This document shows, one piece after another, positions 7,460-58,560 of a stretch of DNA of 64,000 nucleotides. Every line of letters starts with the position of its first letter. Within the stretch, counting starts at the first letter, position 1. A program made the position numbers and the translations under genes. Under the pieces are notes generated by a model that was given only the letters and a program-made list of their open reading frames with translations, was not told the origin of the DNA and searched no databases. Origin of the DNA: a virus; IMG/VR virus record IMGVR_UViG_3300035204_002571, positions 17,921 through 81,920 of that record. One strand, 5' to 3'.

Positions 7460-7466
7460 AGGATAC

Positions 7467-9863: not shown

Positions 9864-9906
9864 CAAAGCCAGCAAGTATAAGTGGAAGCATTGTGATTAA
9901 TAATCA

Positions 9907-9946
9907 ACTAATTTATTCATAATTTATATAGATAAATTAGTACAAT
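9907..9946 (+). promoter_or_regulatory. 10-bp perfect inverted repeat abutting a -10-like TACAAT
   Basis: ACTAATTTAT (9907-9916) and ATAAATTAGT (9932-9941) with a 15-nt spacer. TACAAT at 9941-9946, ATG at 9972. Confidence 0.45.
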
Positions 9947-9971
9947 ACTAGTTAGTTTAGAGAGAAGTTTA

Positions 9972-43925: not shown

Positions 43926-43927
43926 GT

Positions 43928-45013
43928 ATGAAGATTTTAATAGCATGTACCCAATACCCTTATCATGGTGGAGCTGCAACAAATTCATACGCCCTTGTGA
44001 AGGGTTTGAGAAAAAGAAAACATAGAGTATGTGGTCTATTTTTTGAAGATAGTCGGGCCAATTGTGATCCAGACAATATTGGAAAGATTATAAAATCAAG
44101 CTCTAAAATTGGAAGCTATAACCAATTGCGTAAAAAAATAATAAGAATGCTAGGCGGAAGTCCAGATATTATATTGGCTAAAAATTATGTTGCACCTATA
44201 TATTGCAGAAAGTTATTTCCGAATTCAAAAATAATTTATTTAGTATCTGGGGCTCCTATTATGATGCCTTTGTCTAAGGATAATATATCTGCGATTAGAT
44301 ATCTATCTATGGATAATTCAAAAATAAGGAAAAAGTATAGTAAAAACCTTCTTTCTCTAGAGAAGGGGGCTATAAGGGCTTGTGATGCAGTTATCTTGAA
44401 TAGCGGAATATCTAGAAAAGTTTTTTTAAAAACAAATGCTAAAAGCTTGCAAAATAGAAAAGTTTTTAAACCTTTAAATACCTCTATAGTTATAAACAGA
44501 AGAGGGAGGGGTACGAAGGCTAAAGATTTTAATAAGCGAGAGGTAGATATAGCCTTTATTTGTTCTAATTTTTCCAGAACAGTTAAGAACGCAGGATTTG
44601 CCAAGAAGCTTCTTCTTAACAAAAGGCTTGCCGGAAAAACCAAGCTTGTAGTTGGGCAAAACAGTAAAATGTTTGCAAATGTTCCAAATATTATAACTAA
44701 AGGTAAAGTGGGCAATAGTACAATTTTTAGTTACTTGAATAAAACAAAGCTAGTCATTTGTACGTCTTATTTTGATGCCTCGCCAAACATAATTAATGAA
44801 GCGCGAGCATCAGGCTGCAATGTTCTTGTGTCTAGAAACTGCGGCTGGCACAGAAGGTATGGAGCCAAAAGCGTGTGCAAAGATGTATATGGATTAAATG
44901 AGTGGATTAATAAAATTTTGTCATCATGCAAAGGGGAGATTGAATATCCAATCATACAGTCAGATAAAGATATTCTTATAGCATTGGAAAGCATGATCAA
45001 GGAGCTGCTATGA
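43928..45013 (+). CDS. Glycosyltransferase, GT-B (GT4-like)
   Basis: MKILIACTQYPYHGGAA, RTVKN, TSYFDASPNIINEARASGCNVL. Confidence 0.8.
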   Translation: MKILIACTQYPYHGGAATNSYALVKGLRKRKHRVCGLFFEDSRANCDPDNIGKIIKSSSKIGSYNQLRKKIIRMLGGSPDIILAKNYVAPIYCRKLFPNSKIIYLVSGAPIMMPLSKDNISAIRYLSMDNSKIRKKYSKNLLSLEKGAIRACDAVILNSGISRKVFLKTNAKSLQNRKVFKPLNTSIVINRRGRGTKAKDFNKREVDIAFICSNFSRTVKNAGFAKKLLLNKRLAGKTKLVVGQNSKMFANVPNIITKGKVGNSTIFSYLNKTKLVICTSYFDASPNIINEARASGCNVLVSRNCGWHRRYGAKSVCKDVYGLNEWINKILSSCKGEIEYPIIQSDKDILIALESMIKELL

Positions 45014-45075
45014 GTATAATTATAGGATGGCTGACCGGGCAAGCGGGTTTGAAAATTATGCCTGAAAGGTTGTGA
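45010..45075 (+). other. 21-codon translationally coupled mini-ORF (MSIIIGWLTGQAGLKIMPERL), possible gene remnant
   Basis: ATG overlaps the upstream stop (ATGA), with AGGAG just upstream. Fills the gap before 45082. Confidence 0.35.
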
Positions 45076-45081
45076 GAAACT

Positions 45082-46146
45082 ATGTTTGGTACTAAATTTT
45101 GGTATAAAAAGAAAAAAATATTATTTGTAGTAGATGTTCAAGGATGGGCATATGACGATAGAGCAAAAACATGGAAATCTTTGCTTAAAGATGAGTTTGA
45201 AATTGATATACTTAGATTGTCAGAGTTTCCAGTTGGAAGTTATAGTTCAGAGTTTTCAATTATAAATAGAAAAATTATAAATGCTGCCAATGAAGGGGTG
45301 CCCTTAAATTGTTCAAGAATTGTTACAGATCCTAGTTCTGTTAATTATTCTTTTTCAGATTTAGGTAAAATAAAAAAATTAAAACCAGTATTTGATCATA
45401 AAAAATATGATGGGATTGTTTTTTTCTATCATAAGGCGATTGCAGACAGAAGGCTTTTGGCAACTCCCTTTCCAATGAATAAGGTAGCGGTATGTATTAA
45501 TAATGAAAAGTGGAAAGAAGAAGGTGCAGAGTATTTTGCAAAAACTTTTTATTCAGAAGTAAAGATTTTGGTTGGATGTAATAAATATATAGTTGATTCT
45601 TTTTCTGGGCTTCATCCTAACGTAATGCGCGCTTCCCAATGTGTAGATAGTTCTGTCTTTTTTAAAGATAAAAATCTTAATACTAAGCCTAAAAGGAGAT
45701 TTACAGTTGGGTGGTCTGGCAACCATAGTAATCCGCTCAAAAGAGTTGAGTTAATAAAAAAGGCTTGTAACAAAGCAGGTGTAACATTATCTATAAAAAA
45801 AGATCTTAGTAGGAAGGATCTTAATGTTTGGTATAACAGTATTGATATAGTAATTTGTGCTAGTGAGTCTGAAGGAGGCCCTATGTTGTTGCTGGAGGCT
45901 GGCGCTGTTGGGGTGCCGGCCATTACAGCTAATGTGGGGCTCGCAAGAGAGATGGTGAGTCATGAAAAAAATGGTTTAATCTTGAAAGAAGGCAGCGTCA
46001 AAAACATAAAAGAACTTATTTTAAAATTAAAAAACAAACCAGATCTCGTAAAAGCTTATGGAAGAAGAGTTCATCAAGAGATTTTAAAAAATTGGACATA
46101 TGAGGCAAGGTTGCATGAGATCAGGGGGGTGTTGAGGGCGCTATGA
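45082..46146 (+). CDS. Glycosyltransferase, GT-B (GT4-like)
   Basis: ILFVVDVQGWAY, VGWSGN, ASESEGGPMLLLEAGAVGVPAIT, HEKNGLI. Confidence 0.88.
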   Translation: MFGTKFWYKKKKILFVVDVQGWAYDDRAKTWKSLLKDEFEIDILRLSEFPVGSYSSEFSIINRKIINAANEGVPLNCSRIVTDPSSVNYSFSDLGKIKKLKPVFDHKKYDGIVFFYHKAIADRRLLATPFPMNKVAVCINNEKWKEEGAEYFAKTFYSEVKILVGCNKYIVDSFSGLHPNVMRASQCVDSSVFFKDKNLNTKPKRRFTVGWSGNHSNPLKRVELIKKACNKAGVTLSIKKDLSRKDLNVWYNSIDIVICASESEGGPMLLLEAGAVGVPAITANVGLAREMVSHEKNGLILKEGSVKNIKELILKLKNKPDLVKAYGRRVHQEILKNWTYEARLHEIRGVLRAL

Positions 46147-47270
46147 AAATTAAAAAGAAAATAATAATTTATCCAAATCCAAGAAATAAAATAAAAATTA
46201 ATACACATCATGGCGTATGTGGCTTTTTTTTAAATAAGTATCTTTTAAAATATTATGATATTATACCCACAGAGGCATTAAGGTGGATTTCTAAGTCTGG
46301 AGGGGTAGGCCCGGGAACCAAGCAGTCAAATTTGTTGAATTTTGCACAAAAGGCTCATGAGCTAGGTGCGTCCCACGTTATATCTACGCAGCAGCGGGGT
46401 TTTACAAAAATATTTAAAAAACTATCTTCTAGTGATATAGGAAAAATAAGAAAAAGAAATAAAGGTGTAAGTTTTTGCTCAGTTCATGATCATTCTGGTC
46501 ATCGCAAGTTTGCTGAAGACGTACTGTTTGTGGCCCTACCCTTTGATGAGAAAAGGAGAAGGCAAATGCTTAAGGAGTCTGAGACAAAGCTGATTCATAC
46601 AGGATGGTGTGCAGATCATGCCATATTTAATGACAACAAGAATAAGCATGGTGATTTAAATATTGTTTTAGACCATGCTGCTTTGCAAGGTTTTAGAGCA
46701 GATGCAACAAGCTTATATGTTAAGCAGATTAAAAAATTAAAAAAGAATTATCCTAAAAAAGAGATAAACTTATGCAGAATAAAAGGTGGATTTGAGTTTT
46801 TTGACTTCAAGAGAGATGGCTGGACGCATGATCTAAAAAATAGATGGTGGAAATCAAAATATGATGATGGCTGGAAAAACGATAGTAGGTGTCATATCTT
46901 TCAAATAGCAGAATGTTTAAATGATTCGCATATTTTCTGTACTACACATGTTGAGAGTTGCGGGCTTACAGGAATAGAAGCTTTGATGTCAGGGTGCAAA
47001 GTATATATTCCAAGGGGCAAAGATACTTTTAATATGTGGGGAAGTGGTGGAAAAATGGGCAGCTATGAAGGCCCATTTCTAAAGAGCGCTTTATTGAAAC
47101 CATATATGGATTATAGTATTTTTAATTTTAATAATCCACAACAATGCTATAAGCTGTTTAAGCGTGATATTGATATATATAAAGTAAAATACAACAGAAA
47201 GCTGCTTATAGAGAAGAATTCTTGGAAGGCGGCTGCAAAGCAAATATATTTGGGGCTAGAATCAAAATGA
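46143..47270 (+). CDS. Putative glycosyltransferase, divergent GT-B
   Basis: THVESCGLTGIEALMSGC (EX7E) and terminal NSWKAAAKQI. Confidence 0.7.
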   Translation: MKIKKKIIIYPNPRNKIKINTHHGVCGFFLNKYLLKYYDIIPTEALRWISKSGGVGPGTKQSNLLNFAQKAHELGASHVISTQQRGFTKIFKKLSSSDIGKIRKRNKGVSFCSVHDHSGHRKFAEDVLFVALPFDEKRRRQMLKESETKLIHTGWCADHAIFNDNKNKHGDLNIVLDHAALQGFRADATSLYVKQIKKLKKNYPKKEINLCRIKGGFEFFDFKRDGWTHDLKNRWWKSKYDDGWKNDSRCHIFQIAECLNDSHIFCTTHVESCGLTGIEALMSGCKVYIPRGKDTFNMWGSGGKMGSYEGPFLKSALLKPYMDYSIFNFNNPQQCYKLFKRDIDIYKVKYNRKLLIEKNSWKAAAKQIYLGLESK

Positions 47271-48217
47271 AGATATTGTACTTGGATGATAAAAAGCATG
47301 GTTATAATTCGAATATACATCTTGATTTTTTTTCTTGGATGCAAAAAAAACATGAAATCATTGGAGTCGGCACATATTTGGGCGATAAGCTGAAGAGGTC
47401 TTATTGTCCAAGTGAAAAAAATATAAAAAAGCAAATAAATAGAATAATAAAAAAAGAACAACCCGATTTTGTTATAACTTATAACGCCGGAAGCAATAAT
47501 GCGTTTAGGCTTAAATGGTTAAACGAGGTTTTGCCGCAAATCGATTTGCCAAAATTTCATATTTCAACAGATTATTGTAGAAATAGATTTGAGCCTAATC
47601 AGGCTAAGTGGTTTGAGAAGATGGGATTTGCAGCTTCTTTGTTTAGACATAAGGTTTCTTTGAAACATCCATTAAATATTGATAAATATTGGTTTCCTTT
47701 TTCAATTAATACAGAAGAATATCAGGCTAATATTAATAAGAATATTTCAAATAAGGTAAAAAAAGTCGCATTTGTTGGAGCTTATAAAAAGTCTAAGGGA
47801 CTTTATAAGAAGAGGGTAGCGGCTATAGACTTCTTGCGGCAAAATAATTTTTTAAATGAATCTGTAGACAGAATTATTGGTTTGGACTTTATTCAATTTT
47901 GGAGCGAAAATATGTTTGGCTTAACCTGTAGTGGCGTTTGTAATTATTTTGTAGCCAAACATATACAGATACCTGCAGCATATAGTATGCTTGTTTGCGA
48001 TGGAACAGCCCCAGGTATTGAGACATTTCCAGAAGACACATATATAACTTATAATGCAGATAATATTAAAGAGCTTAAGCCAAAAATTCTTTATCATATA
48101 AATAATCCTAAAATTACTAAGAAAAAAATAGATATATTACATAAACATGTCTTAAGAAATCATAGTCATTCTCAAAGAGAAAGGGAGTTAGTTAAAATTG
48201 TCAAAAAATACTTGTAA
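47267..48217 (+). CDS. Putative glycosyltransferase (CgeB/Glyco_trans_1_2-like GT-B)
   Basis: Start ATG 47267 (ATGA overlap). WFPFSIN, VAFVGAY...YKKR, FVAKHIQIPA, HVLRNHSHSQR. Confidence 0.7.
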   Translation: MKILYLDDKKHGYNSNIHLDFFSWMQKKHEIIGVGTYLGDKLKRSYCPSEKNIKKQINRIIKKEQPDFVITYNAGSNNAFRLKWLNEVLPQIDLPKFHISTDYCRNRFEPNQAKWFEKMGFAASLFRHKVSLKHPLNIDKYWFPFSINTEEYQANINKNISNKVKKVAFVGAYKKSKGLYKKRVAAIDFLRQNNFLNESVDRIIGLDFIQFWSENMFGLTCSGVCNYFVAKHIQIPAAYSMLVCDGTAPGIETFPEDTYITYNADNIKELKPKILYHINNPKITKKKIDILHKHVLRNHSHSQRERELVKIVKKYL

Positions 48218-48224
48218 AGAATTT

Positions 48225-48857
48225 ATGATGAAAGCAGAGGAGGCGTCAAGACTTAAGCTGATAGAGCCAAATATGTTCCTAAAAGGAAGTGTAGCTATAG
48301 TGGGCTCTGGGGGCAGGCTGAGATACACCAAATATGGAGAGAAGATAGATGGATATGACCATGTGGTTAGGTTTAATCGAGCGCCAACGATAGGTTATGA
48401 AGATATGGTTGGAGGGAAAAGAACTCTAACGGTCGCTAATCGTCACGTATTTGGAAACAAACAGCTTAAAAGAAAGTCGGGCTGGGAACAAGAGGATCCC
48501 TATTTCATTAGGAATCTCAAAAATACGAATATTTTATATTTTGCAAGACCGCATAGGGTCTGGGACATCAGAGAGGAGAATGTGAGCCCAACAAGTCGAG
48601 TCTTTAAAGTTTCTAATTATAGCAAAATGGTCAAGCTTATAGAGTATCCTATAAAAAATCCTTCTGTAGGTTATGGGTTTGTTATGTTGTGTGTATGCTC
48701 TGGAATTAAGCCTCATCTGTATGGGTTTGATATAGATACAGATAGTAGGGATCATTATTGGGAAGAAAGAGATGAAGTTTTTACTCACAATATTTCTTAT
48801 GAACAGGAAAGGCTTGTTGAGCTACATGATGCAAAGAAGATCAAAATAAACAGTTAG
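48225..48857 (+). CDS. GT29 sialyltransferase-family protein 1 (soluble)
   Basis: Sialylmotif L (VAIVGSGG...GEKIDGYDHVVRFNRAPTIGYEDMVGGKRT), S (PSVG...PHLYGFD), III (HYWE) and VS (HNISYE). Confidence 0.85.
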   Translation: MMKAEEASRLKLIEPNMFLKGSVAIVGSGGRLRYTKYGEKIDGYDHVVRFNRAPTIGYEDMVGGKRTLTVANRHVFGNKQLKRKSGWEQEDPYFIRNLKNTNILYFARPHRVWDIREENVSPTSRVFKVSNYSKMVKLIEYPIKNPSVGYGFVMLCVCSGIKPHLYGFDIDTDSRDHYWEERDEVFTHNISYEQERLVELHDAKKIKINS

Positions 48858-48871
48858 ATTAAATAAATATG

Positions 48872-48892
48872 TTAATAATGAATATAATGATG
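48872..48892 (+). promoter_or_regulatory. Putative promoter motif TTAATAAT-N3-TATAATGATG (copy 1)
   Basis: Intergenic, contains TATAAT, 18/21 identical to 62679-62699. Confidence 0.55.
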
Positions 48893-48930
48893 AATCCAGG
48901 CAGTTAGCTAAAAGCAAGAAAAGGATATTA

Positions 48931-49635
48931 ATGAGTAGAATATTTAAAAACAAGACTACCAAGCTTAATGGCGTTATTAATCTTACTAATAAGAATGCGA
49001 CCGAATTATCAGGAAGAACTAGAAAGTATACTCTTCGGGAGAATGGCCGGCCTCACCCAAAGGTGGTCCGACAGTACGTTAAGATTATAGATATTTTAAA
49101 AATTAAGAATGAAGTAATATTAGATTTTGGGTGCTGTATGGGTCATGCTTCTTTTGTTTTTAAAGAAAGAACCCCTAAAGCTACTTACATAGGTGCAGAC
49201 TTAAATGCGGCAAACTTACTTGCGGGAAAGTCAGAGTATAATCCTAAATTTTTATATAAGGTAAAGTATACCGAGCCATGTTTAGATGGGATTAAGGATG
49301 ATTCAATAGATCTGATTATTGTTAGCAGGCTAACTGATTGGACGGAAGTTGATAATTTTTTTCCTGAATTTAATAGAGTGTTAAAAAAGGGTGGGCATTT
49401 ATTTGTTCGGTCAAACGGAGGAGGCTTGCGCGGAAAAGGTGGTCATGTGGTTTTAAAGCTAAAAGTTTATGAGTATCTTAAAAATGATTACAAATCATAC
49501 AGAACACCCGGGAGAGATCTAGAGGGGTTTGCACTGGCCTTGTGGGGCGATAAAAATAGATATAAAAATTTAAAAAAAGAGTTTACGAAAAAAGAATGGA
49601 AGAAAACTTTTAATGGAATTTTTATAAAAAAATGA
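48931..49635 (+). CDS. Class I SAM-dependent methyltransferase
   Basis: ILDFGCCMG (motif I), YIGADLN, DSIDLII, RVLKKGGHL. Confidence 0.85.
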   Translation: MSRIFKNKTTKLNGVINLTNKNATELSGRTRKYTLRENGRPHPKVVRQYVKIIDILKIKNEVILDFGCCMGHASFVFKERTPKATYIGADLNAANLLAGKSEYNPKFLYKVKYTEPCLDGIKDDSIDLIIVSRLTDWTEVDNFFPEFNRVLKKGGHLFVRSNGGGLRGKGGHVVLKLKVYEYLKNDYKSYRTPGRDLEGFALALWGDKNRYKNLKKEFTKKEWKKTFNGIFIKK

Positions 49636-50246
49636 AAAAAATTATTTGCATTTCTCCAGATTTATTTTTGTCTAAAAGTTTGGCCATTGTAGGCTCCAGC
49701 GGTTCTCTTGGGAGTGGAAAGTATGGAAAAAAGATAGATAGATTTGATGACGTTATAAGGTTTAATAGGGCTCCAACGGAGGGTTTTGAAGAAATGGTTG
49801 GATCCAAAAGAACCTTAACTGTTGCTAATTCACATGTTTTTGCAAACATTCAGCTTAGAAAGAAGTCAGGCTGGAAACAGAAACATGTAAGCTTTATTGA
49901 AGACCTAAGAGAAACAAGAGTTCTTCTTTTTGCTCCGGCCAATATGCGGTGGAAAAACAGGTATAAATATATTCATGCATCAGTAGTTCCCTACTCTGTT
50001 GATTACAAGGCTATGTGCAAGCTTGTACCGGTCCCAAAAAGGCAGCCGACTGCTGGCTTTGGGTTTATAAATCTTTGTGTTAAATCAGGTCTTAAGCCAC
50101 ATCTGTTCGGCTTTGATGTAGAGCCAAGACAGAGAGATCATTATTGGGAAGAAAGAGATAATGATACTTCTTGGCATAGCGTTGGTTATGAGAAAGAAGT
50201 GCTGAAAAAAATGCATAAAAAAGGTATGATCGTATTACATTCTTAG
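49632..50246 (+). CDS. GT29 sialyltransferase-family protein 2 (soluble)
   Basis: Motif L (LAIVGSSG...GKKIDRFDDVIRFNRAPTEGFEEMVGSKRT), S (PTAG...PHLFGFD), III (HYWE) and VS (HSVGYE). Confidence 0.85.
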   Translation: MKKIICISPDLFLSKSLAIVGSSGSLGSGKYGKKIDRFDDVIRFNRAPTEGFEEMVGSKRTLTVANSHVFANIQLRKKSGWKQKHVSFIEDLRETRVLLFAPANMRWKNRYKYIHASVVPYSVDYKAMCKLVPVPKRQPTAGFGFINLCVKSGLKPHLFGFDVEPRQRDHYWEERDNDTSWHSVGYEKEVLKKMHKKGMIVLHS

Positions 50247-50303
50247 GCGTATAGGCATATTGGGATATGCTAATTTTTATTAAAAGGTTATAAGTGCGCC
50301 TAA
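50243..50303 (+). other. Predicted three-stem-junction RNA structure in intergenic region
   Basis: P1 50243-50252/50294-50303, P2 GCATAT/ATATGC 50255-50270, P3 50271-50278/50283-50290 (G-U pairs allowed). Confidence 0.35.
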
Positions 50304-50324
50304 TAGTATGGAGTCGATTATTTT

Positions 50325-51521
50325 ATGTTAATCTTTATAGATATTGATGAAACAATTTGCAATACGCCAGAATCAAGAGATTACTCGCTAGCGCAGCCTA
50401 TTAAAAAGAATATAGAAATAGCCAATAAGCTATATGACGAAGGGAATACCATTGTTTATTGGACAGCAAGAGGCAGCGTGACAGGTATAGACTGGACTGC
50501 TGTTACGCAAGCTCAGCTCAATAATTGGGGAGTAAGACATCATGAGCTAAGGCTTGGAAAGCCTCCTTATGATTTAATGATTTGTGATAAAACCATAAGC
50601 AGCCTAAATATGAAAGGCAATCTAGAGAGAGTTATGAATACACATTCTTCTGTTACGCCGATTCCGCCGGATTTTGATAAAAATGAAAATTTATTTCTAG
50701 AGTCAACAAATACGTATGTTGACTTTCTAATTACAGAAGGCGTTCAGACCGTCATGACTACTGCTGGCACATCTCAGTTTGGGCTGATGTCCTTAGACGA
50801 AATACACAGTTTTAATGCGGTGGTGGCCAAATCTAATGCAAGCAAAAAGATAATAGGTATGCCGCCACTATCTCAAGTGCAGGCCAAAGAGTTTGCCAGA
50901 TTTGCTCAAAAGAAATATTTAAATGAGTCATGTTTTTTGATGGCGCTTTATCCAGATAGATGGTATGACAATGAGACTATTGTTTCTTATTTTTCAGAAA
51001 TTGGTGGAGAGTGTGAGAACCCTCTGTATATTCATTGCATGAAGATGAGGGCAGGAAAAGGAGGGTCTTGGGATTTTACGGGAGACTCTCTTAGGCCATT
51101 AAGTGATAATGGAGTTGTTGTAGGCATTAAGGAGGAGCATTCATCTCTTAAGGATTCATACGACTTTGTATCGTCATTAGACTCAAGTTTAGATGTGATT
51201 GTTGCTGGCGGAAGCATGCGAAGGCATCAGTTTCTTAGATCTGCTGGAGCAAACTCTTTCTTGTCTGGGCTGGGGAATCTTTTTCCAAAAATTGAACAAC
51301 AATACATGGGCGGAGCAAATGTTGATGAAGCTTTATGTCTAGAGACTATGCTTTTTGATGTTTTTATGAAAAATGGATGGCATAAATCATTAAGAGAAGC
51401 CTTGAGGCAACGTGAGTTGACGTGCTTGTTTGACAGAAAGCCTTGGCCTAAGGTGACCGAAGAAGAATCAGATGAAATAAAAAACGTGCTATCTAAAATA
51501 GAAAAGGAGATAAAAGCATGA
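50325..51521 (+). CDS. Fusion: small HAD phosphatase (capsule-locus type) + DHDPS/N-acetylneuraminate lyase-family aldolase
   Basis: N-terminal FIDIDETI, YWTARG, KPPYDLMICDK. C-terminal VTPIPPDFD, TTAGTSQF, VVGIKEE (Schiff-base Lys), GANSFLSGLGNLFP. Confidence 0.75.
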   Translation: MLIFIDIDETICNTPESRDYSLAQPIKKNIEIANKLYDEGNTIVYWTARGSVTGIDWTAVTQAQLNNWGVRHHELRLGKPPYDLMICDKTISSLNMKGNLERVMNTHSSVTPIPPDFDKNENLFLESTNTYVDFLITEGVQTVMTTAGTSQFGLMSLDEIHSFNAVVAKSNASKKIIGMPPLSQVQAKEFARFAQKKYLNESCFLMALYPDRWYDNETIVSYFSEIGGECENPLYIHCMKMRAGKGGSWDFTGDSLRPLSDNGVVVGIKEEHSSLKDSYDFVSSLDSSLDVIVAGGSMRRHQFLRSAGANSFLSGLGNLFPKIEQQYMGGANVDEALCLETMLFDVFMKNGWHKSLREALRQRELTCLFDRKPWPKVTEEESDEIKNVLSKIEKEIKA

Positions 51522-52303
51522 GTGATAAAGTATGGATCCTAGGGCCTTGTAGCCTTGAAAATGAAGATCTTTTTATGGAGACTTTCTCAGAAATTTCTAA
51601 AATAATGCAGGGAAGAGACTGGTATATGAAGGCTAGCTTCGATAAGGCTAACAGAACCAGCCTTCATGGCGGCCGGGGCCCTGGCCTTGAATATTGCATG
51701 GAGGTCTGGAAGCAAATAAAGGCTGACAATCCAGAGGTTAAGTTCTTAACGGATGTGCATGAAACCTGTCAAGTAGAGGGGCTGTCAGAGGTTATTGATT
51801 GTATTCAGATTCCGGCATTTCTATGTCGCCAAACAGATCTCATAGTAGAGTGCGCAAGGCACTTTGACAAGATGAACATCAAGAAGGGACAGTGGCTCGG
51901 ACCAAATAATCTTAATAAGTCAGTAGACAAAGTAAGGGAGATCAACCCAAACTGTGAGGCTTGGATTTGTGATCGAGGAACTAATTTTGGATATCATGAT
52001 TTATTTGTTAACTTTGGAATTGTCGATGAGCTTAAGAAGGCGTTTGATAAAGTGATTCTTGATGCCACCCATTCGATCCAGAGGTCAAGAGCGGTATATG
52101 GTTCACAGGGCGACAGAAGGCTGGCAGAAAGATATCTAGTTGGAGCAGATGTTTTTGGATATGATGGGGTATTTGCGGAAGTTCACCCCAATCCTCCAGA
52201 GGCAGTGTCTGATGCTGATTGTCAGATTTACCTCAGCGATCTAGAGAGGATGGTTAGGATGGCCGACGCTGTTGGTGAGGCGTCTAAAGGTTTGCATGAG
52301 TAG
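51518..52303 (+). CDS. kdsA: 3-deoxy-D-manno-octulosonate 8-phosphate (KDO8P) synthase
   Basis: GPC, KASFDKANRTS..GRGPG, QIPAFLCRQTDL, NIKKGQW, RGTNFGY, DATHSIQ, EVHPNP..AVSDA. AAGGAG RBS. Confidence 0.92.
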   Translation: MSDKVWILGPCSLENEDLFMETFSEISKIMQGRDWYMKASFDKANRTSLHGGRGPGLEYCMEVWKQIKADNPEVKFLTDVHETCQVEGLSEVIDCIQIPAFLCRQTDLIVECARHFDKMNIKKGQWLGPNNLNKSVDKVREINPNCEAWICDRGTNFGYHDLFVNFGIVDELKKAFDKVILDATHSIQRSRAVYGSQGDRRLAERYLVGADVFGYDGVFAEVHPNPPEAVSDADCQIYLSDLERMVRMADAVGEASKGLHE

Positions 52304-52721
52304 AGCTTCTTTGCACTTGCACGTTGGGTTTCATAAAACTGGAACAACATGGCTGCAGCGATTAGTTTTTCCAGAGCTAAAGGGGGTTAATTACATTGGA
52401 AAGCGCTTTAGTGCAAAAGGCGCAAAAAATAATTTTAACCACCTGTATAATGATAGTTACGCCGGGTCTGCTAATAAAGGTAGGGATATTATGGAGCTTA
52501 TTTTTATAGATATTTATAAAGCATGTTTGGGAGGCAAAGGCTTGTTGGCAAAAGAGTATCAGGCAGATCCCGTGCATTTGAGCAAAGAGGTGTCAGAAAA
52601 AGTGTGTGAATTTTTGACAAAAAAGATTAAGCGAAAATTATCAAAAAAGATTACAGAAGAAGATGTTTTAAAAAAATATTTTATTTTTAATAACAAATTT
52701 CAATGTTACCTTAGGAGTTAG
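52296..52721 (+). CDS. Short sulfotransferase-like ORF, apparently truncated or chimeric
   Basis: N-terminal PAPS-binding loop LHVGFHKTGTTWLQ, but only ~141 aa and no 3'-PB motif. C-terminal half resembles an SGNH DxxH end. Confidence 0.5.
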   Translation: MSRASLHLHVGFHKTGTTWLQRLVFPELKGVNYIGKRFSAKGAKNNFNHLYNDSYAGSANKGRDIMELIFIDIYKACLGGKGLLAKEYQADPVHLSKEVSEKVCEFLTKKIKRKLSKKITEEDVLKKYFIFNNKFQCYLRS

Positions 52722-52723
52722 GG

Positions 52724-53413
52724 GTGTTTTTATCGGACACAAAAATGGTAAATGAAGCTCCCGAGCATTATGTCAAGATAGTTAAAAAGGCTTGTTTGGC
52801 AAACAAGATTGTTTTTATACATATTCCAAAAAATGCTGGAACAAGTATAAAAAAAGCTTTAAGGCTTAATAAGTCGCCATGTCATTTGTTTGCAAGTGAA
52901 ATAAAACATGCAATAGGCCCAAAGGAGTTTGGGAAGAACGCAAGAGTTTGCGTTATTAGGAATCCGTGGGACAGACTTGTCTCCATCTATTGCCAGCAGC
53001 GCACTAGAAGGAAAACTCTTTTTTTTAAAGGCATTAAAGGAAGTGGCGGCTTGGTTCCTGGGTTTGAAGATGGGGTTCCGACATTTGAAGATTTTATTTT
53101 AAAATATTTTCCAAAAACCTGGTGGCAAGGTAGGTCTTTATCTCAAACGAAATATATTCAACATAGCAATAAGGATAAGATTATTGTTAATAAGATTTTA
53201 AGGTATGAGAAATTAGATGAAGAATGGGAAAAGCTTTCCAAAGAGCTTTGTTTAAACGTTAGCTCTCTAAATAGAATTAATAAATCAAAAGATAAAAAAA
53301 ATAACTATAGAGAGTTTTACAAAACTAGCAAAAAAGGTTTTAATCATAAATTGATAGACAAAGCATCTGAGTTGGTAGAGATTGATGCGAAGAATTTTGG
53401 GTATAAGTTTTGA
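52724..53413 (+). CDS. Sulfotransferase (Sulfotransfer_2-like)
   Basis: FIHIPKNAGTSI (5'-PSB), IRNPWDRLVSIY (3'-PB), RYEKLDEEW. Confidence 0.88.
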   Translation: MFLSDTKMVNEAPEHYVKIVKKACLANKIVFIHIPKNAGTSIKKALRLNKSPCHLFASEIKHAIGPKEFGKNARVCVIRNPWDRLVSIYCQQRTRRKTLFFKGIKGSGGLVPGFEDGVPTFEDFILKYFPKTWWQGRSLSQTKYIQHSNKDKIIVNKILRYEKLDEEWEKLSKELCLNVSSLNRINKSKDKKNNYREFYKTSKKGFNHKLIDKASELVEIDAKNFGYKF

Positions 53414-54162
53414 TGACAAAAAGATTAGCAATTGTACCGGCCAGAGGTGGATCCAAGAGGTTGCCTGGTAAAAATTTTAAAAGATTAAACGGCAAGCCTT
53501 TAATATATCACACAATAGATAAAGCTATTAAGCATTTTGATCATGTTATATTTACAACAGATGATGACAAAATGATCAAAAAGGCTAAAAGAAAATATTT
53601 TTTCAAAAAGAATATAGAAGTTTTAAAAAGACCAGATCACTTATCTTCTGACACTTCAAAGGTAATTGATACAGTTTGTTATTATTTTGATCAAGAAAAA
53701 TATTTAGAATATGATCAAATATGGCTTCTGCTGCCAACGTGTCCGCTAAGAGGTGATGAGGATATCAGGAGTGCTCAAGAACAACTAACGGGTGAGTACG
53801 ATTCAGTTTTGAGCATAACAGATTACGGATTCCCGCCAACCCTGGGCCTCAACAGGGATGCGAATGGACTTATAACAGATTTTCATGAAAGTAGGCCTTG
53901 GGCTAACAATAATACCAGATCTCAAGATCATCCGGATGTTTTCCGTCCAAATGGAGCGATTTATGGTTCATGGAGAGTCTCGTTCGAGGTTAATCGAAAT
54001 TTTTATTTCGGAAAAGTTCGTGGCAACTATATGCCAAGAGATCGATCTATAGATATAGATACAGAATTAGATTTTATAATTGCAGAGTCTGTTATGAGAA
54101 ATAACGAATACAAAAGAACAAAAAGTATATGGATGTGGATGGGCAGCATAGATGGAAGCTAA
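53413..54162 (+). CDS. Acylneuraminate/ulosonate cytidylyltransferase (NeuA-type CMP synthetase)
   Basis: IVPARGGSKRLPGKN, LLPTCPLR, TRSQD, PNGAIY, SIDIDTELDF. Confidence 0.9.
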   Translation: MTKRLAIVPARGGSKRLPGKNFKRLNGKPLIYHTIDKAIKHFDHVIFTTDDDKMIKKAKRKYFFKKNIEVLKRPDHLSSDTSKVIDTVCYYFDQEKYLEYDQIWLLLPTCPLRGDEDIRSAQEQLTGEYDSVLSITDYGFPPTLGLNRDANGLITDFHESRPWANNNTRSQDHPDVFRPNGAIYGSWRVSFEVNRNFYFGKVRGNYMPRDRSIDIDTELDFIIAESVMRNNEYKRTKSIWMWMGSIDGS

Positions 54163-54862
54163 AGGGACTAAGGTCGGAATAATGCAGCCATATTTTTTTC
54201 CATATATTGGTTATTTCCAACTAATACAAGCTGTCGATTTGTTTATAATATATGATAATATAAAGTATACAAAACGAGGTTGGATAAATAGAAACAGAAT
54301 ACTGCAGAATGGTTCTGATGCATTAATTTCATTGCCAATAAAACGTGATTCGGACTTTCTTGACGTGCGAGATAGAGCAGTAGCGGAGAGTTTTAATAGA
54401 GATAAATTTCTTAATAAAATTATAGGAGCGTATAATCGAGCGCCTTATTTTGAGGAAACATTTTTCTTAATTAAGCAAATTATACAATATGAAAATACAA
54501 ATTTATTTTGTTTTTTGCACAATGCTGTTGCTAAGCTTTGTGAGCATTTAAGTATTATGACAGAGATGAGAAAATCTTCAGATATTAATATTGATCATAA
54601 TTTAAAGAGCCAAGACAAGGTTCTCTCCTTATGTGAAGCTGTCGAGGCAGATGTTTATATAAATGCTATTGGAGGCATAGAGTTATATTCGAAAGAAGTT
54701 TTTTTAGAAAAAAATATAGATTTGAAGTTTATTCAGTCAAATTTAATTGAATATCGGCAGTTTGAACATGATTTTTGTCCTTGGTTATCAATTATTGATG
54801 TGATGATGTTTAATTCAAAAGAAAATATTGATAAATATTTAAATAGGATAAAATTGCTATGA
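54152..54862 (+). CDS. WbqC-family protein
   Basis: IMQPYFFPYIGYFQLI, KRGWINRNRI, YINAIGG, PWLSIIDVMM. Confidence 0.9.
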   Translation: MEAKGTKVGIMQPYFFPYIGYFQLIQAVDLFIIYDNIKYTKRGWINRNRILQNGSDALISLPIKRDSDFLDVRDRAVAESFNRDKFLNKIIGAYNRAPYFEETFFLIKQIIQYENTNLFCFLHNAVAKLCEHLSIMTEMRKSSDINIDHNLKSQDKVLSLCEAVEADVYINAIGGIELYSKEVFLEKNIDLKFIQSNLIEYRQFEHDFCPWLSIIDVMMFNSKENIDKYLNRIKLL

Positions 54863-55821
54863 GATGGAAAAAGTTAGGCAGGATTTTTAATCCGAAAGAT
54901 ATAGTTGATCCCGGAAAAGAATGGATGAGAGAATTCGCGCAATGTACGAGCACATTAGTTTTCAAAGACTTTATACGGATATATTTTTCATGTAGGCCTT
55001 TTGCTGAAAAAGATGGCCAAAGAATTACATATACTGCATTTATTGATGTAGATAGAGATGATTTGTTTAAAATAATAAATGTTGCAAAAGAGCCTATCTT
55101 GCGCCTTGGAGGTTTAGGTGCTTTTGATGAATTTGGAGTATATCCAACTTCGGTTATAAGTGATAAAGAAAATATTTTATTATATTATGCTGGCTGGTCA
55201 AGGTGTAGCTCGGTTCCCTTTGATGTATCTATTGGTTTGGCGAAAAGTGTTGATGGAGTTGTCTTTGAGAGAGTTGGGTCAGGACCTATGTTGTCAAAAA
55301 GTTTTGATGAGCCATTCGTCATTAGTGGGCCCAAGGTAAGAATCTTTGATGGTTTGTGGTATTTGTACTATATTGCTGGAAGCAAATGGTTGATAGATGA
55401 TGGCAGACCAGAAGTTGTTTATAAGATTAGAATGGCAACATCAACAGATGGAGTTAATTGGAACAAAATGAATAATAATATTATTGATAATATTTTAGAG
55501 GAGACAGAGTGTCAGGCTGGCCCAGATGTTTTTTTCTATGAAGGAAAATATCATATGTATTTTTCCTATAGATGTGCATTAAATTTTAGAAAAAATAAAG
55601 ATAGAGCCTATAGGATTGGATATGCGTTTTCAGATGATTTGATTAATTGGACTAGAGATGATAAAAATGTTGGGATAACCTTTTCTGAAGATGGTTGGGA
55701 TAGCAATATGTTACACTATCCACATATATTTGAGCTTGATGGTAAGTTTTATATGCTTTATAATGGAAATGAATTTGGAAGGTGTGGATTTGGAATAGCG
55801 GAGATGGAAAGTTATGATTAA
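54859..55821 (+). CDS. Five-bladed beta-propeller glycosidase-like protein (GH32/43/130-like fold)
   Basis: MRWKKLGRIF, GAFDEFG, repeated S.DG..W (SVDGVVF, STDGVNW, SDDLINW), YMLYNGNEFG. Confidence 0.75.
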   Translation: MRWKKLGRIFNPKDIVDPGKEWMREFAQCTSTLVFKDFIRIYFSCRPFAEKDGQRITYTAFIDVDRDDLFKIINVAKEPILRLGGLGAFDEFGVYPTSVISDKENILLYYAGWSRCSSVPFDVSIGLAKSVDGVVFERVGSGPMLSKSFDEPFVISGPKVRIFDGLWYLYYIAGSKWLIDDGRPEVVYKIRMATSTDGVNWNKMNNNIIDNILEETECQAGPDVFFYEGKYHMYFSYRCALNFRKNKDRAYRIGYAFSDDLINWTRDDKNVGITFSEDGWDSNMLHYPHIFELDGKFYMLYNGNEFGRCGFGIAEMESYD

Positions 55822-56963: not shown

Positions 56964-57907
56964 CACCTTTAGTTGCGCCACTCTGCCCAGGTTCTGATAT
57001 TTTAGTAAAAGATTTTAATTTAGATTATTTTATATCTAAAATAAATAATAAAGAATATTTTTCATTTTGGAAAATTAATCATGGGCACTGGGAGCAGCTA
57101 TATTCATATTTTGTTATGTTGAATGGACAGCATTATACAAAAAATGAAAATTCTAATAAAAATAATATTGCTCCAAAACAAATATCAGATAGTGATCTTA
57201 TGGGATATTGCAAATGGGCAGTAAAAAGATCACACTCCCCTTTGTTTGGGGCTTCATGGGAAGAGTTGTATAAAGTAATTAGTTTAATTCATAGTGTTTA
57301 TCTTAATGGCCACCCATCCGAAGGTGATGATTATATTTTCGCATTATCAGATGGATCCCATAGAGATTATACATCTATAAATGATAATTTATATTCTAAA
57401 TTCAAAAAATATTATGTACATAATATACATGATGTTATTAGAGCATCTATTTATAATCAGAATGGATTGATATTATGTAAAAATAACCTCGAATATGAAG
57501 AGCATTTGAGATTTGTGCCTGCTCGTGGAAACATTTTTAAAAAAGCCTATAGAGGTGGCATTTTGACAAATCTTTTTGACGCCATACAGGGAATGAGGAT
57601 TCTATATGTGGGGCCTGGGAAAATTGATAATGAAAAGTATCCTCATATAGACGCAATTAAAATTCCTTCTTCAAGAGCAATTATGAAGCGAGATAATACT
57701 CTTTCTGAAATTAAAGCATGGTGCGAGATGAGAGAACATGAATCAATAGACCAAATTATATTTTTTTGTTGCGGATATACGCAGGTATATTTAATACATA
57801 CGTTACACAAGATGTATTCTAATACTTTTTTAATAGATGTAGGGCAATCATTAGATCCTTTGATAAAAAAGAATCACACAACTAAGCCATGGGAGGTGAA
57901 GCGATGA
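56960..57907 (+). CDS. Hypothetical protein, possibly GT-D fold (DUF1792-like) glycosyltransferase
   Basis: FSFWKINHG near the N-terminus and IIFFCCG...FLIDVGQSLDP at the C-terminus loosely resemble the GT-D pattern (S..RFGDGE...IDIG). Divergent. Confidence 0.35.
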   Translation: MTPLVAPLCPGSDILVKDFNLDYFISKINNKEYFSFWKINHGHWEQLYSYFVMLNGQHYTKNENSNKNNIAPKQISDSDLMGYCKWAVKRSHSPLFGASWEELYKVISLIHSVYLNGHPSEGDDYIFALSDGSHRDYTSINDNLYSKFKKYYVHNIHDVIRASIYNQNGLILCKNNLEYEEHLRFVPARGNIFKKAYRGGILTNLFDAIQGMRILYVGPGKIDNEKYPHIDAIKIPSSRAIMKRDNTLSEIKAWCEMREHESIDQIIFFCCGYTQVYLIHTLHKMYSNTFLIDVGQSLDPLIKKNHTTKPWEVKR

Positions 57908-58560
57908 CGAGTAAGGCAGTGGGCGTTTATAGAGTAACTGAAGAATTTGAAGAAGAGCTTTGCAGATACACAGGGGCTTCTTATGCTGTTGCTGTTGATA
58001 ATTGTAGCAACGCTTTATTTCTTGCGTTAAAATACGAAAAGGTTGGAGGAACTGAGATAAGCATACCCTGCAGAACATATCCATCTGTACCTTGTGAAAT
58101 TATACATGCTGGGGCAAAGGTTGCTTTTGAAAAAGTGGAGGGCACTACAATTTCTGGAGCATATCAGCTTAAACCCTCATGTGTTTGGGATTCGGCATTA
58201 AGATTTACTCACAATATGTATATGCCGGGAACCCATATGTGTGTTTCTTTTACGGGTCCATTTAAACACTTTAGACTAAGCAAGGGAGGGGCGATATTGA
58301 CTGATAATAAAGATGCATATGAATGGTTCAAAAGAGCTAGATGCTCTGGAAGAAGGCCATGCCCATATCATGAAGATGATTTAGATATGCTTGGATGGAA
58401 CTTTTATATGATGCCTGAGCTGGCAGCACGAGGCCTTCTTCTTATTAGGCAGTTTTATACTCAGATAGGCAATGAGCCCATACATCATGAGGATGCAACT
58501 ATGTCATATCCAGATTTATCACAATTTAAAATATATAAACAAACAAAGGAAACTTTATGA
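57904..58560 (+). CDS. DegT/DnrJ/EryC1/StrS-family PLP sugar aminotransferase, short form (~218 aa)
   Basis: FEEELCRYTGASYAVAVDNCSNALFLAL, WDSA, SFTGPFKH..GGAILTD, GWNFYM. Start ATG 57904 (ATGA overlap). Confidence 0.85.
   Translation: MTSKAVGVYRVTEEFEEELCRYTGASYAVAVDNCSNALFLALKYEKVGGTEISIPCRTYPSVPCEIIHAGAKVAFEKVEGTTISGAYQLKPSCVWDSALRFTHNMYMPGTHMCVSFTGPFKHFRLSKGGAILTDNKDAYEWFKRARCSGRRPCPYHEDDLDMLGWNFYMMPELAARGLLLIRQFYTQIGNEPIHHEDATMSYPDLSQFKIYKQTKETL

What the first reader, a model, noticed from the sequence alone, without database searches (positions are those of the whole stretch)
48225..54162. Non-canonical CMP-Kdo (or related ulosonate) route feeding GT29 transferases
Seen: kdsA, a HAD phosphatase fused to a class I aldolase, a NeuA-type CMP synthetase and two GT29 genes within 6 kb. 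No neuB/neuC, kdsB, kdsC, kdsD or waaA in the window. Established: KdsA makes Kdo-8-P; activation needs a phosphatase and a CMP transferase; GT29 uses CMP-ulosonates, and plant GT29 members are linked to Kdo/Dha transfer in RG-II. Inference: the HAD domain substitutes for KdsC, the NeuA-like enzyme for KdsB, and the GT29s are Kdo (or novel ulosonate) transferases rather than sialyltransferases.
Basis: partly seen in the sequence, partly recalled or inferred. Interest (0 to 1): 0.85.

Follow-up and report, generated by a model that had tools for sequence, protein, structure and literature searches.

The report
Phage Kdo-type sugar module with mini-GT29s
A huge uncultured marine phage carries a tightly packed, membrane-free gene set that most likely builds an eight-carbon acidic sugar of the Kdo type, activates it with CMP and attaches it with two miniature relatives of animal sialyltransferases; the gene set recurs in many phages, is untested, and one of its core enzymes (an aldolase-like protein) has no known role in such pathways.

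Summary
At 48198-54162 (+) lie two GT29 paralogues, a SAM methyltransferase, a HAD::DHDPS-like fusion, a metal-type KdsA, two sulfotransferase-like ORFs and a NeuA-type CMP synthetase. The genes are soluble and translationally coupled. They sit about 10 kb downstream of the baseplate genes of a myophage record that is only 19% complete.

The order [GT29]-[HAD]-aldolase-KdsA-...-CMP synthetase recurs in more than 30 IMG/VR loci. Three complete or near-complete phage genomes with the cassette each have exactly one GT29 and one cytidylyltransferase, and no NeuB or KdsD.

New here:
- The aldolase-like gene sits directly upstream of KdsA in every locus that has KdsA.
- In one lineage KdsA is replaced by NeuB while the aldolase, HAD, GT29 and CMP synthetase stay.
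- Two phages with canonical KdsA+KdsB lack the aldolase; one of them also carries a KdsD-type isomerase.
- The best fold match of the HAD is a phage terminal-phosphate phosphatase (AfhF), not KdsC.

I infer that the product is a Kdo-derived octulosonate, possibly not Kdo itself. This scan found the same cassette before in at least 11 other genomes. I found no paper describing it.

The parts
48198..48857 (+). GT29a: soluble ~210-aa minimal GT29 (sialyltransferase-family) glycosyltransferase. The likely start is the ATG at 48225.
   Evidence: PF00777 at 76 bits against a cut-off of 23. Sialylmotif-like L, S, III and VS segments can be read in the sequence. No TM helix. 49% identical to GT29b.
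48931..49635 (+). Class I SAM-dependent methyltransferase lying between the two GT29 genes. Its stop overlaps the GT29b start by 4 nt. It is a candidate O-methylase of the sugar or glycan.
   Evidence: PF08241, PF13649 and PF13847 hits. Methyltransferases also recur at or inside the cassette in related loci.
49632..50246 (+). GT29b: second soluble minimal GT29.
   Evidence: PF00777 at 90 bits, matching profile positions 58-271 of 272. 44 bits to pig ST3Gal-I, 2WNB. Relatives in 23 of 33 clustered loci.
50325..50620 (+). HAD phosphatase domain (residues 1 to ~95) of the fusion protein. It is the proposed octulosonate-8-phosphate phosphatase.
   Evidence: D6, D8, T10, T47, K79, D83 and D88 are invariant or nearly invariant in 31 homologues. 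AF2 model pLDDT 86.6. Best PDB fold is the phage AfhF D-arabinose-1,5-P2 phosphatase, 31% identity, TMq 0.75. The same small HAD sits near NeuB in 20 of 51 other viral loci.
50640..51521 (+). DHDPS/NAL-superfamily class I aldolase-like domain (residues ~106-398), a new viral subfamily whose role is unknown. Its stop overlaps the KdsA start by 4 nt.
   Evidence: PF00701 at 33 bits. Lys269 aligns to the Schiff-base Lys of T. maritima DHDPS. TIM barrel modelled at high confidence, with Foldseek TM (target-normalised) ~0.8 to both DHDPS and NAL at ~18% identity. 120 clusters at E<=1e-30 among 1.84 billion representatives. Directly upstream of KdsA in all KdsA-bearing loci.
51518..52303 (+). KdsA: metal-type 3-deoxy-8-phosphooctulonate synthase.
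   Evidence: NF003543 at 247 bits against a cut-off of 242. 187 bits to A. aeolicus KDO8PS, with GPC, KANRT, QIPAFLCRQTDL, KKGQ, DATHS, EVHP and SDA conserved.
52272..52721 (+). Small ORF with a sulfotransferase-type PAPS-loop motif (HKTGTT). It is either a truncated or an atypical sulfotransferase.
   Evidence: Only a weak Sulfotransfer_1 hit (E 0.007, residues 18-41). Its status is uncertain.
52724..53413 (+). Sulfotransferase (Sulfotransfer_2 type). Its stop overlaps the CMP synthetase start by 4 nt.
   Evidence: PF03567 at 33 bits against a cut-off of 22. Sulfotransferases occupy the same slot in L056, L078 and L079.
53410..54162 (+). NeuA/PseF-like CMP-ulosonate synthetase. It is the only cytidylyltransferase in the record.
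   Evidence: TIGR03584 at 111 bits (below its cut-off of 205.7). KdsB models score 42 bits or less. Full-length match to N. meningitidis CMP-Neu5Ac synthetase. Single PF02348 hit in the record.

Best explanation
This is a self-contained, cytoplasmic phage module for a CMP-activated 3-deoxy-octulosonic acid, together with its transfer.

Proposed steps:
1. KdsA condenses host arabinose-5-phosphate with PEP to give Kdo-8-phosphate. This rests on conserved catalytic motifs.
2. The DHDPS-like Schiff-base enzyme then acts on the 2-keto-3-deoxy head of that phosphorylated product. The reaction is inferred and unknown. The candidates are C4 re-setting by retro-aldol and re-addition, or a dehydratase-type step.
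3. The fused ~95-aa HAD domain removes the terminal 8-phosphate (inferred).
4. The NeuA-like enzyme makes the CMP-sugar (inferred).
5. The two soluble mini-GT29s transfer it to a cytoplasmic acceptor, most plausibly a glycan being built on virion proteins by the neighbouring GT4 array. The methyltransferase and sulfotransferases tailor it (inferred).

The sugar is Kdo-derived, and I judge it about as likely as not to differ from authentic Kdo.
For: Gene identities are given.

Conserved synteny. Aldolase-KdsA adjacency holds in 31 of the 34 distinct aldolase loci recovered from IMG/VR. A CMP synthetase lies within a few kb in 27 of the 33 clustered loci, and a GT29 in 23 of 33.

Closed system. 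Complete or near-complete genomes G001, G002 and G004 have no NeuB, no SIS domain, one CTP_transf_3 and one GT29, and these two lie within ~5 kb of each other inside the cassette locus.

Canonical contrast (n = 2). LR756500.1 has KdsA (344 bits), KdsB (276 bits) and a KdsD-type SIS protein. S-SCSM2R has KdsA plus KdsB. Neither has the aldolase.

Synthase swap. L084-86 keep the HAD, aldolase, GT29-like gene, PhyH and CMP synthetase but carry NeuB::TIM-barrel instead of KdsA. Their aldolase has changed the putative substrate-side residues Y235, H237, R242 and R299 while keeping the Lys. This fits an enzyme that handles the synthase's product.

Aldolase active site. By alignment to DHDPS, it has Lys269 at the Schiff-base position, Arg242 at the position of DHDPS Arg138, and an invariant Arg299-Arg300. 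This fits an anionic (phosphorylated) substrate tail.

HAD. The four HAD motifs are invariant, and the closest solved structure is a phage terminal-phosphate sugar phosphatase (PMC13326640).

Cellular location. No TM helix occurs in any ORF from 38.4 to 63.5 kb, and 4-nt overlaps couple the genes.

Precedent for a GT29 taking Kdo: plant RCKT1 (PMC11288761) and the E. coli K6 GT29-GT107 ORF (PMC13171606).
Against: No enzyme of this cassette has been assayed, and the donor, the product and the acceptor are all inferred.

The record is only 19% complete, so this phage itself could encode NeuB or KdsB elsewhere.

The cassette KdsA keeps every Kdo8P-synthase motif, and nothing in the sequences demands a non-Kdo product.

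The aldolase's position in the pathway is inferred from linkage and from a remote alignment (~18% identity). The aligned catalytic Tyr position is His237, so even aldolase chemistry is not assured.

The canonical-versus-cassette contrast rests on two canonical phages only.

Earlier notes of this scan report aldolase-only cassettes without KdsA or NeuB. If that aldolase belongs to the same family, it could be a synthase in its own right.
Confidence: 0.45

Rival explanations
1. The module is the same but the product is authentic CMP-Kdo. KdsA, the HAD and the NeuA-like synthetase simply replace KdsA, KdsC and KdsB, and the GT29s are plain Kdo transferases as in plants. The aldolase-like protein is then accessory. 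It could be a Kdo/Kdo8P lyase that buffers the pool, a scaffold for KdsA, or an anomer or ring-opening helper.
For: KdsA is canonical in all its motifs. Plant GT29 RCKT1 is needed for Kdo in RG-II (PMC11288761). CroV's predicted Kdo pathway also uses an N-acylneuraminate-cytidylyltransferase-like enzyme (PMC9614988). This is the simplest chemistry.
Against: It does not explain why the aldolase is present and translationally coupled in every KdsA cassette, nor why it is absent from the two phages examined with KdsA+KdsB. It also does not explain why phages would replace KdsB at all.
Confidence: 0.25
2. There are two parallel acidic sugars. KdsA makes Kdo. The DHDPS-like enzyme independently condenses pyruvate with an anionic aldehyde to make a second 2-keto-3-deoxy acid, for example a Dha-like heptulosaric acid or a phosphorylated ulosonate. 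Both are activated and transferred, one by each GT29.
For: Arg242 sits at the position of DHDPS Arg138, which (from my own knowledge) binds the carboxylate of the 4-carbon aldehyde-acid substrate. The window has two GT29 paralogues. Kdo and Dha co-occur where GT29s are implicated in plants, and the route to activated Dha is unknown (PMC11288761). Earlier scan notes report aldolase-only cassettes.
Against: Most cassettes, and all three complete genomes, have one GT29 and one synthetase only. The aldolase was never found without a PEP-dependent synthase next to it in my set. No enzyme that could supply the aldehyde-acid is evident.
Confidence: 0.12
3. The GT29s use a nonulosonate (sialic-acid-like) donor that is made by genes in the missing ~80% of this genome or by the host. 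In that case KdsA, the HAD and the aldolase serve another purpose, such as boosting or diverting host LPS precursors.
For: The record is 19% complete. Other phages pair the same GT29, HAD and synthetase families with NeuB: L022, L020, L027, and LR756508.1 with four GT29-like stretches beside NeuB. The synthetase is NeuA-like.
Against: Complete relatives that carry the cassette have no NeuB anywhere, and they have only the one synthetase and one GT29. GT29, KdsA and the synthetase are contiguous and coupled in the window.
Confidence: 0.08
4. The island glycosylates phage DNA (a hypermodified base) rather than protein or polysaccharide.
For: The closest characterised homologue of the HAD works in the arabinosyl-5-hydroxycytosine DNA pathway. 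GT-B enzymes of the GT4 type are the DNA arabinosyltransferases there.
Against: Acidic, sulfated and methylated sugars, together with more than 10 transferases, fit a glycan and not a base modification. No GT29 is known to act on DNA. I did not look for a pyrimidine hydroxylase or hydroxymethylase, so that point is open.
Confidence: 0.03

Closest known systems
Canonical bacterial and plant CMP-Kdo pathway (KdsD, KdsA, KdsC, KdsB, then a GT30 WaaA or another Kdo transferase). It also occurs in canonical form in some phages (LR756500.1; S-SCSM2R, PMC12801897) and is predicted in CroV and Fadolivirus (PMC9614988).
   Same: It has a metal-type KdsA with all catalytic motifs. The logic of synthase, phosphatase, CMP activation and transfer is the same.
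   Different: There is no KdsD. The phosphatase is a ~95-aa AfhF-like HAD, not a KdsC-type one. The activating enzyme is NeuA/PseF-like, not KdsB. The transferase is GT29, not GT30, GT99 or GT107. An extra, obligatory DHDPS-like enzyme is present.
Plant GT29 RCKT1/MGP2, the putative CMP-beta-Kdo:RG-II Kdo transferase (PMC11288761), and the bacterial GT29-like proteins of marine Gram-negatives (PMC5811610).
   Same: All belong to the GT29 family and carry the sialylmotifs. Like the bacterial GT29s, the phage proteins lack the TM anchor and the conserved disulfide cysteines. A Kdo-type donor is proposed in each case.
   Different: The phage proteins are ~205-220 aa, essentially a bare catalytic core. 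They are encoded next to their own donor pathway. Neither donor nor acceptor has been tested.
Kdn and Neu5Ac 9-phosphate routes (NeuB-type synthase + HAD phosphatase + CMP synthetase), as in animals and Bacteroides thetaiotaomicron.
   Same: A PEP-dependent synthase makes a phosphorylated ulosonate, a HAD phosphatase follows, and a NeuA-type synthetase activates the product. Sister phage cassettes use NeuB in exactly this arrangement.
   Different: Here the synthase is KdsA (8 carbons), and a DHDPS-like enzyme is added.
DHDPS/NAL superfamily of pyruvate-dependent class I aldolases (DapA, NanA, KDG aldolase, KdgD).
   Same: It has the TIM-barrel fold (TM ~0.8), a Lys at the Schiff-base position, and an Arg at the DHDPS Arg138 position.
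   Different: Identity is ~18%. It scores far below all equivalog cut-offs. AGTSQ replaces the G(S/T)TGE motif. His lies at the aligned catalytic Tyr position. It has an invariant Arg-Arg. It is a discrete, mainly viral subfamily that is always linked to KdsA or NeuB.
Phage HY126 AfhF / RB69 gp51, the D-arabinose-1,5-bisphosphate 5-phosphatase of the arabinosyl-5-hydroxycytosine DNA pathway (PDB 9IQW; PMC13326640).
   Same: It is the best structural match of the HAD domain (31% identity). AfhF removes the terminal phosphate of an arabinose-derived sugar, and the C6-C8 end of Kdo8P is that same arabinose-5-P end.
   Different: The genomic context differs: no A5P isomerase, kinase or UDP-sugar pyrophosphorylase is present. 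Here the HAD is fused to the aldolase-like domain.

Membership tests
Canonical Kdo pathway | Kdo8P synthase (KdsA) is present and its catalytic motifs are intact. | tested here: met
   NF003543 at 247 bits against a cut-off of 242. It falls below TIGR01362's cut-off (235 against 314). The motifs are conserved against Aquifex KDO8PS.
Canonical Kdo pathway | Arabinose-5-phosphate isomerase (KdsD/KpsF, SIS domain). | tested here: not met
   No SIS domain is found in the record or in 5 related viral genomes, 3 of them at least 95% complete. The host enzyme is presumed to supply A5P.
Canonical Kdo pathway | KdsC-type (C0 HAD, YrbI) Kdo8P phosphatase. | tested here: not met
   The HAD is a ~97-aa family. 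Its best fold match is AfhF (TMq 0.75). KdsC and Kdn9P phosphatases reach only TMq ~0.43.
Canonical Kdo pathway | KdsB-type CMP-Kdo synthetase. | tested here: not met
   KdsB models score 42 bits or less against cut-offs of 155-281. KdsB structures match only the N-terminal ~90 residues. True phage KdsBs score 200-276 bits.
Canonical Kdo pathway | GT30 WaaA-type Kdo transferase. | tested here: not met
   No PF04413 hit in the record.
GT29 (CAZy) sialyltransferase family | Pfam PF00777 scores above the gathering cut-off, and sialylmotifs L, S, III and VS are present. | tested here: met
   76 and 90 bits against a cut-off of 23. Motif-like segments can be read in the sequences, and they align to ST3Gal-I.
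GT29 (CAZy) sialyltransferase family | Type II membrane topology with a stem, and an L-S disulfide (eukaryotic members). | tested here: not met
   The L motif starts at about residue 15-30 and there is no TM helix. This matches the bacterial GT29s of PMC5811610.
GT29 (CAZy) sialyltransferase family | Uses a CMP-beta-ulosonate donor with inversion. | not testable with these tools
   This is inferred only from linkage to the single CMP synthetase.
DHDPS/NAL class I aldolase superfamily | TIM-barrel fold and a Schiff-base lysine on strand 6. | tested here: met
   PF00701 at 33 bits. Foldseek gives TMt ~0.8 to DHDPS and NAL. Lys269 (GIKEE) aligns to the catalytic Lys.
DHDPS/NAL class I aldolase superfamily | Catalytic Tyr (Y133/Y137) and the G(S/T)TGE carboxylate-binding motif. 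| tested here: inconclusive
   In the HMM alignment, invariant His237 occupies the Tyr position, and Tyr235 lies two residues before it. The motif reads AGTSQ. No residue-level structural superposition was available.
DHDPS/NAL class I aldolase superfamily | Orthology to DapA, NanA, KDG aldolase or KdgD. | tested here: not met
   All equivalog models score 28 bits or less against cut-offs of 206-397. The family profile finds only 719 of 1.84 billion representatives at E<=1e-3.
Sialic / nonulosonic acid pathway | NeuB-type synthase. | tested here: not met
   No PF03102 hit in the record or in the 5 related genomes. One sister lineage has NeuB instead of KdsA.
NeuA-type CMP-nonulosonate synthetases | Full-length similarity to CMP-Neu5Ac, CMP-Pse or CMP-Leg synthetases. 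| tested here: met
   89 bits over residues 4-233 to 1EYR. The best NCBIfam model is PseF at 111 bits, below its equivalog cut-off of 205.7. This shows family membership, not a named specificity.
HAD phosphatase superfamily | Motifs I-IV and the Rossmannoid fold. | tested here: met
   The DxDxT motif, Thr47, Lys79 and Asp83/Asp88 are invariant or nearly invariant. AF2 pLDDT is 86.6, with HAD-family fold hits.

The most novel reading that the evidence does not exclude
The viral DHDPS-like enzyme is a new kind of ulosonate-editing enzyme. It acts on Kdo-8-phosphate (or, in sister phages, on a NeuB product) to give a previously unknown octulosonic acid, such as a C4 epimer or a 4-deoxy-keto derivative. 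Only the NeuA-like synthetase and the mini-GT29s then accept this sugar. Huge marine phages would thereby coat their virion (baseplate or fibre) proteins with a sulfated or methylated acidic glycan made through a pathway orthogonal to host LPS synthesis.
Probability: 0.3. Interest if true: 0.8.

Novelty: new variant of a known kind. Interest (0 to 1): 0.62.

Why it matters
If the reading holds, four things follow.

1. Phages would be a large natural reservoir of small, soluble GT29 enzymes, free of disulfides and membrane anchors. Each sits beside its own donor pathway. That makes them a tractable system for testing directly whether GT29 enzymes transfer Kdo-type sugars. In plants this question has been answered only genetically.

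2. The pathway would show a complete non-orthologous rebuild of Kdo activation: an AfhF-like HAD in place of KdsC, and a NeuA-like enzyme in place of KdsB.

3. It would point to a new DHDPS-superfamily activity tied to ulosonate synthesis.

4. Together with the neighbouring GT4 array, the sulfotransferases and the absence of any membrane or export component, it argues that very large marine phages glycosylate something in the cytoplasm, probably their own virion proteins, with acidic glycans. That would bear on host recognition and on particle stability in seawater.

Tried and rejected
I therefore could not read the genomic context of the 311+ aldolase homologues.
- A pattern scan of 185,579 prokaryote genomes with the aldolase alignment confirmed no relative. 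Only two patterns were used, so this is weak evidence of absence. The Atlas lists some members as bacterial.
- A single-sequence pattern scan of viral contigs with GT29b found nothing. GT29 relatives were recovered only through the aldolase loci.
- The word-index search for longer (358 aa or more) GT29 relatives found none. I could not say whether the phage GT29s are nearer to plant Kdo-type or to animal enzymes.
- Foldseek could not tell DHDPS from NAL as the nearer fold of the aldolase.
- No model coordinates were available, so no pocket analysis was possible.
- Sequencing runs: seawater and marine metagenomes hold the stretch, and no RNA holder is listed.
- I found no paper on this cassette. 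The search for 'AfhF' returned only unrelated acronyms.
- I considered and rejected the idea that the aldolase replaces KdsD by supplying A5P. A pyruvate-type retro-aldol can yield A5P only from Kdo8P itself, and the aldolase persists when KdsA is swapped for NeuB.
- I also rejected altered KdsA substrate specificity, because all motifs are conserved.

Full report
**What the DNA is.** The window is bases 17,921-81,920 of an 81,920-bp IMG/VR virus record that CheckV rates 19% complete. Upstream genes match tail sheath and baseplate wedge PHROGs, so this is a contractile-tailed phage, probably with a genome of several hundred kb. All genes run on the + strand. Only seawater and marine metagenome runs hold the stretch. 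From 38.4 kb to the contig end lies a sugar island. It contains seven GT4-like transferases, the finding itself, and then WbqC, a GNAT, methyltransferases, aminotransferase fragments, a third sulfotransferase, RmlA- and RmlB-like genes and others. None of these ORFs has a convincing transmembrane helix, and many starts overlap the preceding stop by 4 nt.

**Observation.**
- Two GT29 domains are 49% identical to each other.
- A single 398-aa ORF joins a HAD domain to a DHDPS-family barrel.
- KdsA scores just over the NF003543 equivalog cut-off. All the KDO8PS motifs visible in the alignment to the Aquifex enzyme are kept, including the metal-type Cys.
- The cytidylyltransferase matches CMP-Neu5Ac synthetase over its full length. 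KdsB matches only in the nucleotide-binding N-terminus.
- The record has no NeuB, no SIS, no WaaA N-domain, and one cytidylyltransferase. It is a fragment, so these absences do not settle the matter for this phage.

**The cassette is conserved.** Searching viral contigs with the fusion protein and with an alignment of aldolase homologues gave 34 distinct loci.
- tblastn and ORF clustering show a recurrent order: methyltransferase, GT29, [HAD], aldolase, KdsA, [O-methyl- or sulfotransferase], CMP synthetase, PhyH-like oxygenase, followed by a dTDP-sugar set.
- The aldolase lies immediately upstream of KdsA in every locus that has KdsA.
- In the 33 clustered loci, a GT29 is present in 23 and the synthetase in 27.
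- The HAD is fused (only in this phage's cluster), adjacent, or a few genes away.
- The carriers are not one lineage. G001 (458,729 bp) and G002 (370,804 bp, terminal repeats) have baseplate wedge genes, whereas three 135-149-kb genomes have no phrog_6 match.

Three complete or near-complete genomes carry the cassette (G001 100%, G002 100%, G004 95%). In them there is no NeuB and no SIS domain. Each has exactly one CTP_transf_3 and one GT29, both in the cassette. Within what these phages encode, the GT29 can be fed only by the KdsA-derived sugar through the NeuA-like enzyme. All cassette synthetases, whether KdsA- or NeuB-linked, are of the same PseF/NeuA-like type and score below any equivalog cut-off.

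**Contrast with canonical phage Kdo genes.** LR756500.1, a 462-kb uncultured phage, has KdsA (344 bits), a true KdsB (276 bits) and a 408-aa protein with a KdsD-type SIS domain. Cyanophage S-SCSM2R has KdsA (279 bits) next to KdsB (200 bits). Neither has the aldolase. PMC12801897 reports the S-SCSM2R genes as the first kdsA/kdsB in a cyanophage. On this small sample (n = 2), the aldolase goes with a NeuA-like synthetase, and no KdsD-type (SIS) gene was found in the five cassette genomes searched.

**Synthase swap.** In L084-86 (one lineage), the HAD, an aldolase of the same family (29% identity), a GT29-like gene, a PhyH-like oxygenase and the synthetase are kept. KdsA is replaced by a 632-aa NeuB fused to a xylose-isomerase-like barrel. 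That aldolase keeps the Lys and the TTAGTS motif but changes Y235, H237, R242 and the first Arg of the RR pair. Other phages carry NeuB, the synthetase and the HAD, with or without GT29 and without any aldolase: L020, L022 and L027. LR756508.1 carries NeuB and the HAD beside four GT29-like stretches; no synthetase was detected there by tblastn. The small HAD is near NeuB in 20 of 51 loci. Together these results say two things. The HAD, synthetase and GT29 families are generic CMP-ulosonate machinery. The aldolase most likely works on the common 2-keto-3-deoxy part of the synthase's product, not on a precursor specific to arabinose.

**The aldolase-like family.**
- It is discrete. A profile of 20 members finds 120 clusters at E<=1e-30 and only 719 at E<=1e-3 among 1.84 billion representatives. 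The ordinary DHDPS/NAL family is largely not reached.
- Members are mostly ~290-aa stand-alone proteins from marine metagenomes. The Atlas labels the main cluster 90% viral.
- No GenBank phage record, cultured or uncultured, has it.
- A profile search of the PDB gives DHDPS at 1e-10. Lys269 aligns to the Schiff-base Lys, Arg242 to the DHDPS Arg138 position, and His237 to the catalytic Tyr position.
- The AF2 barrel is confident and equally close to DHDPS and NAL.
- From my own knowledge of these families (not tested here): DHDPS Arg138 binds the substrate carboxylate; NAL has Leu at that position; NAL has Asp191/Glu192 where this family has the invariant Arg299/Arg300. This suggests an anionic substrate tail, such as the 8-phosphate.
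- One relative is fused to a GT2 domain (P0213).

I could not determine the reaction. I rank the options as follows:
1. Stereochemical or dehydratase-type editing of the phosphorylated ulosonate.
2. An accessory role in a plain Kdo route.
3. Independent synthesis of a second keto-deoxy acid.

**The HAD.** The ~97-aa family has the four HAD motifs invariant. Its confident model is closest to PDB 9IQW, phage HY126 AfhF (31% identity). KdsC and Kdn-9-P phosphatases are much more distant. According to PMC13326640, AfhF removes the terminal phosphate of arabinofuranose-1,5-bisphosphate. The phosphate end of Kdo8P is that same arabinose-5-P end, so a Kdo8P phosphatase role is chemically reasonable. 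It remains an inference.

**GT29.** The phage proteins are bare catalytic cores with no anchor. This resembles the 23 bacterial GT29s of PMC5811610, which lack a TM domain and the conserved cysteines. A Kdo donor for GT29 has genetic support in Arabidopsis (PMC11288761). It is also invoked for an E. coli K6 GT29-GT107 ORF (PMC13171606).

**Verdict.** The same cassette was noted and followed up earlier in this scan on at least 11 other genomes, with the same reading.

This window adds several points:
- the HAD::aldolase fusion;
- a GT29 duplication with an intervening methyltransferase;
- sulfotransferases inside the cassette.

The comparative work adds:
- the KdsA/NeuB swap;
- the closed-system count in complete genomes;
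- the canonical-phage contrast;
- the AfhF link.

I found no publication describing the cassette.

Noticed in passing
L094 (LR756500.1 122136-140861, reverse complement), locus 6249-11966: A 462-kb uncultured phage carries a canonical Kdo operon: KdsA, a true KdsB, and a 408-aa protein whose C-terminal half is a KdsD-type SIS isomerase (the N-terminal ~210 aa are unassigned). Beside it lie a sulfotransferase-like gene, a GT2, a polysaccharide pyruvyl transferase and a methyltransferase.
   Followed up: partly
L093 (LR756508.1 315812-334432), locus 6186-11336: A 484-kb uncultured phage has four GT29-like stretches around a NeuB and the small HAD. The array is unannotated in GenBank.
   Followed up: partly
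L084:11264-13162 (also L085, L086): NeuB (with a SAF domain) is fused to a xylose-isomerase-like TIM barrel (632 aa). It sits in the cassette position that KdsA holds elsewhere.
   Followed up: partly
P0213 (583 aa, metagenome protein): A GT2 glycosyltransferase domain is fused to an aldolase of the same viral DHDPS-like family.
   Followed up: partly
window 57889-58560 and 62716-63510: The DegT-type aminotransferase ORF is only 223 aa and matches just the first ~85 profile positions. The UDP-glucose dehydrogenase ORF is 264 aa and lacks the start of the NAD domain. These could be split genes, frameshifts or decayed genes.
   Followed up: no
window 38407-50246: The transferases are strongly basic (net charge +15 to +43 for the GT4-like ORFs, +8 and +16 for the GT29s). 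KdsA and the HAD::aldolase are acidic (-12 and -11).
   Followed up: no
GenBank/RefSeq T4-like phages (e.g. NC_015279.1 157424-157711; NC_019909.1 g052): The ~100-aa AfhF-like HAD phosphatase is widely labelled 'phosphoheptose isomerase' in RefSeq phage records. This looks like a mis-transferred name.
   Followed up: no
G002:C1:176762-178279 (370,804-bp phage with terminal repeats): The baseplate wedge match contains one in-frame TAG. This may hint at stop-codon recoding or a split gene in that huge phage.
   Followed up: no
window 54859-55821 and 60887-61963: A GH130/GH43-like beta-propeller ORF and a GSCFA-family ORF sit inside the sugar island. Their roles are unknown.
   Followed up: no
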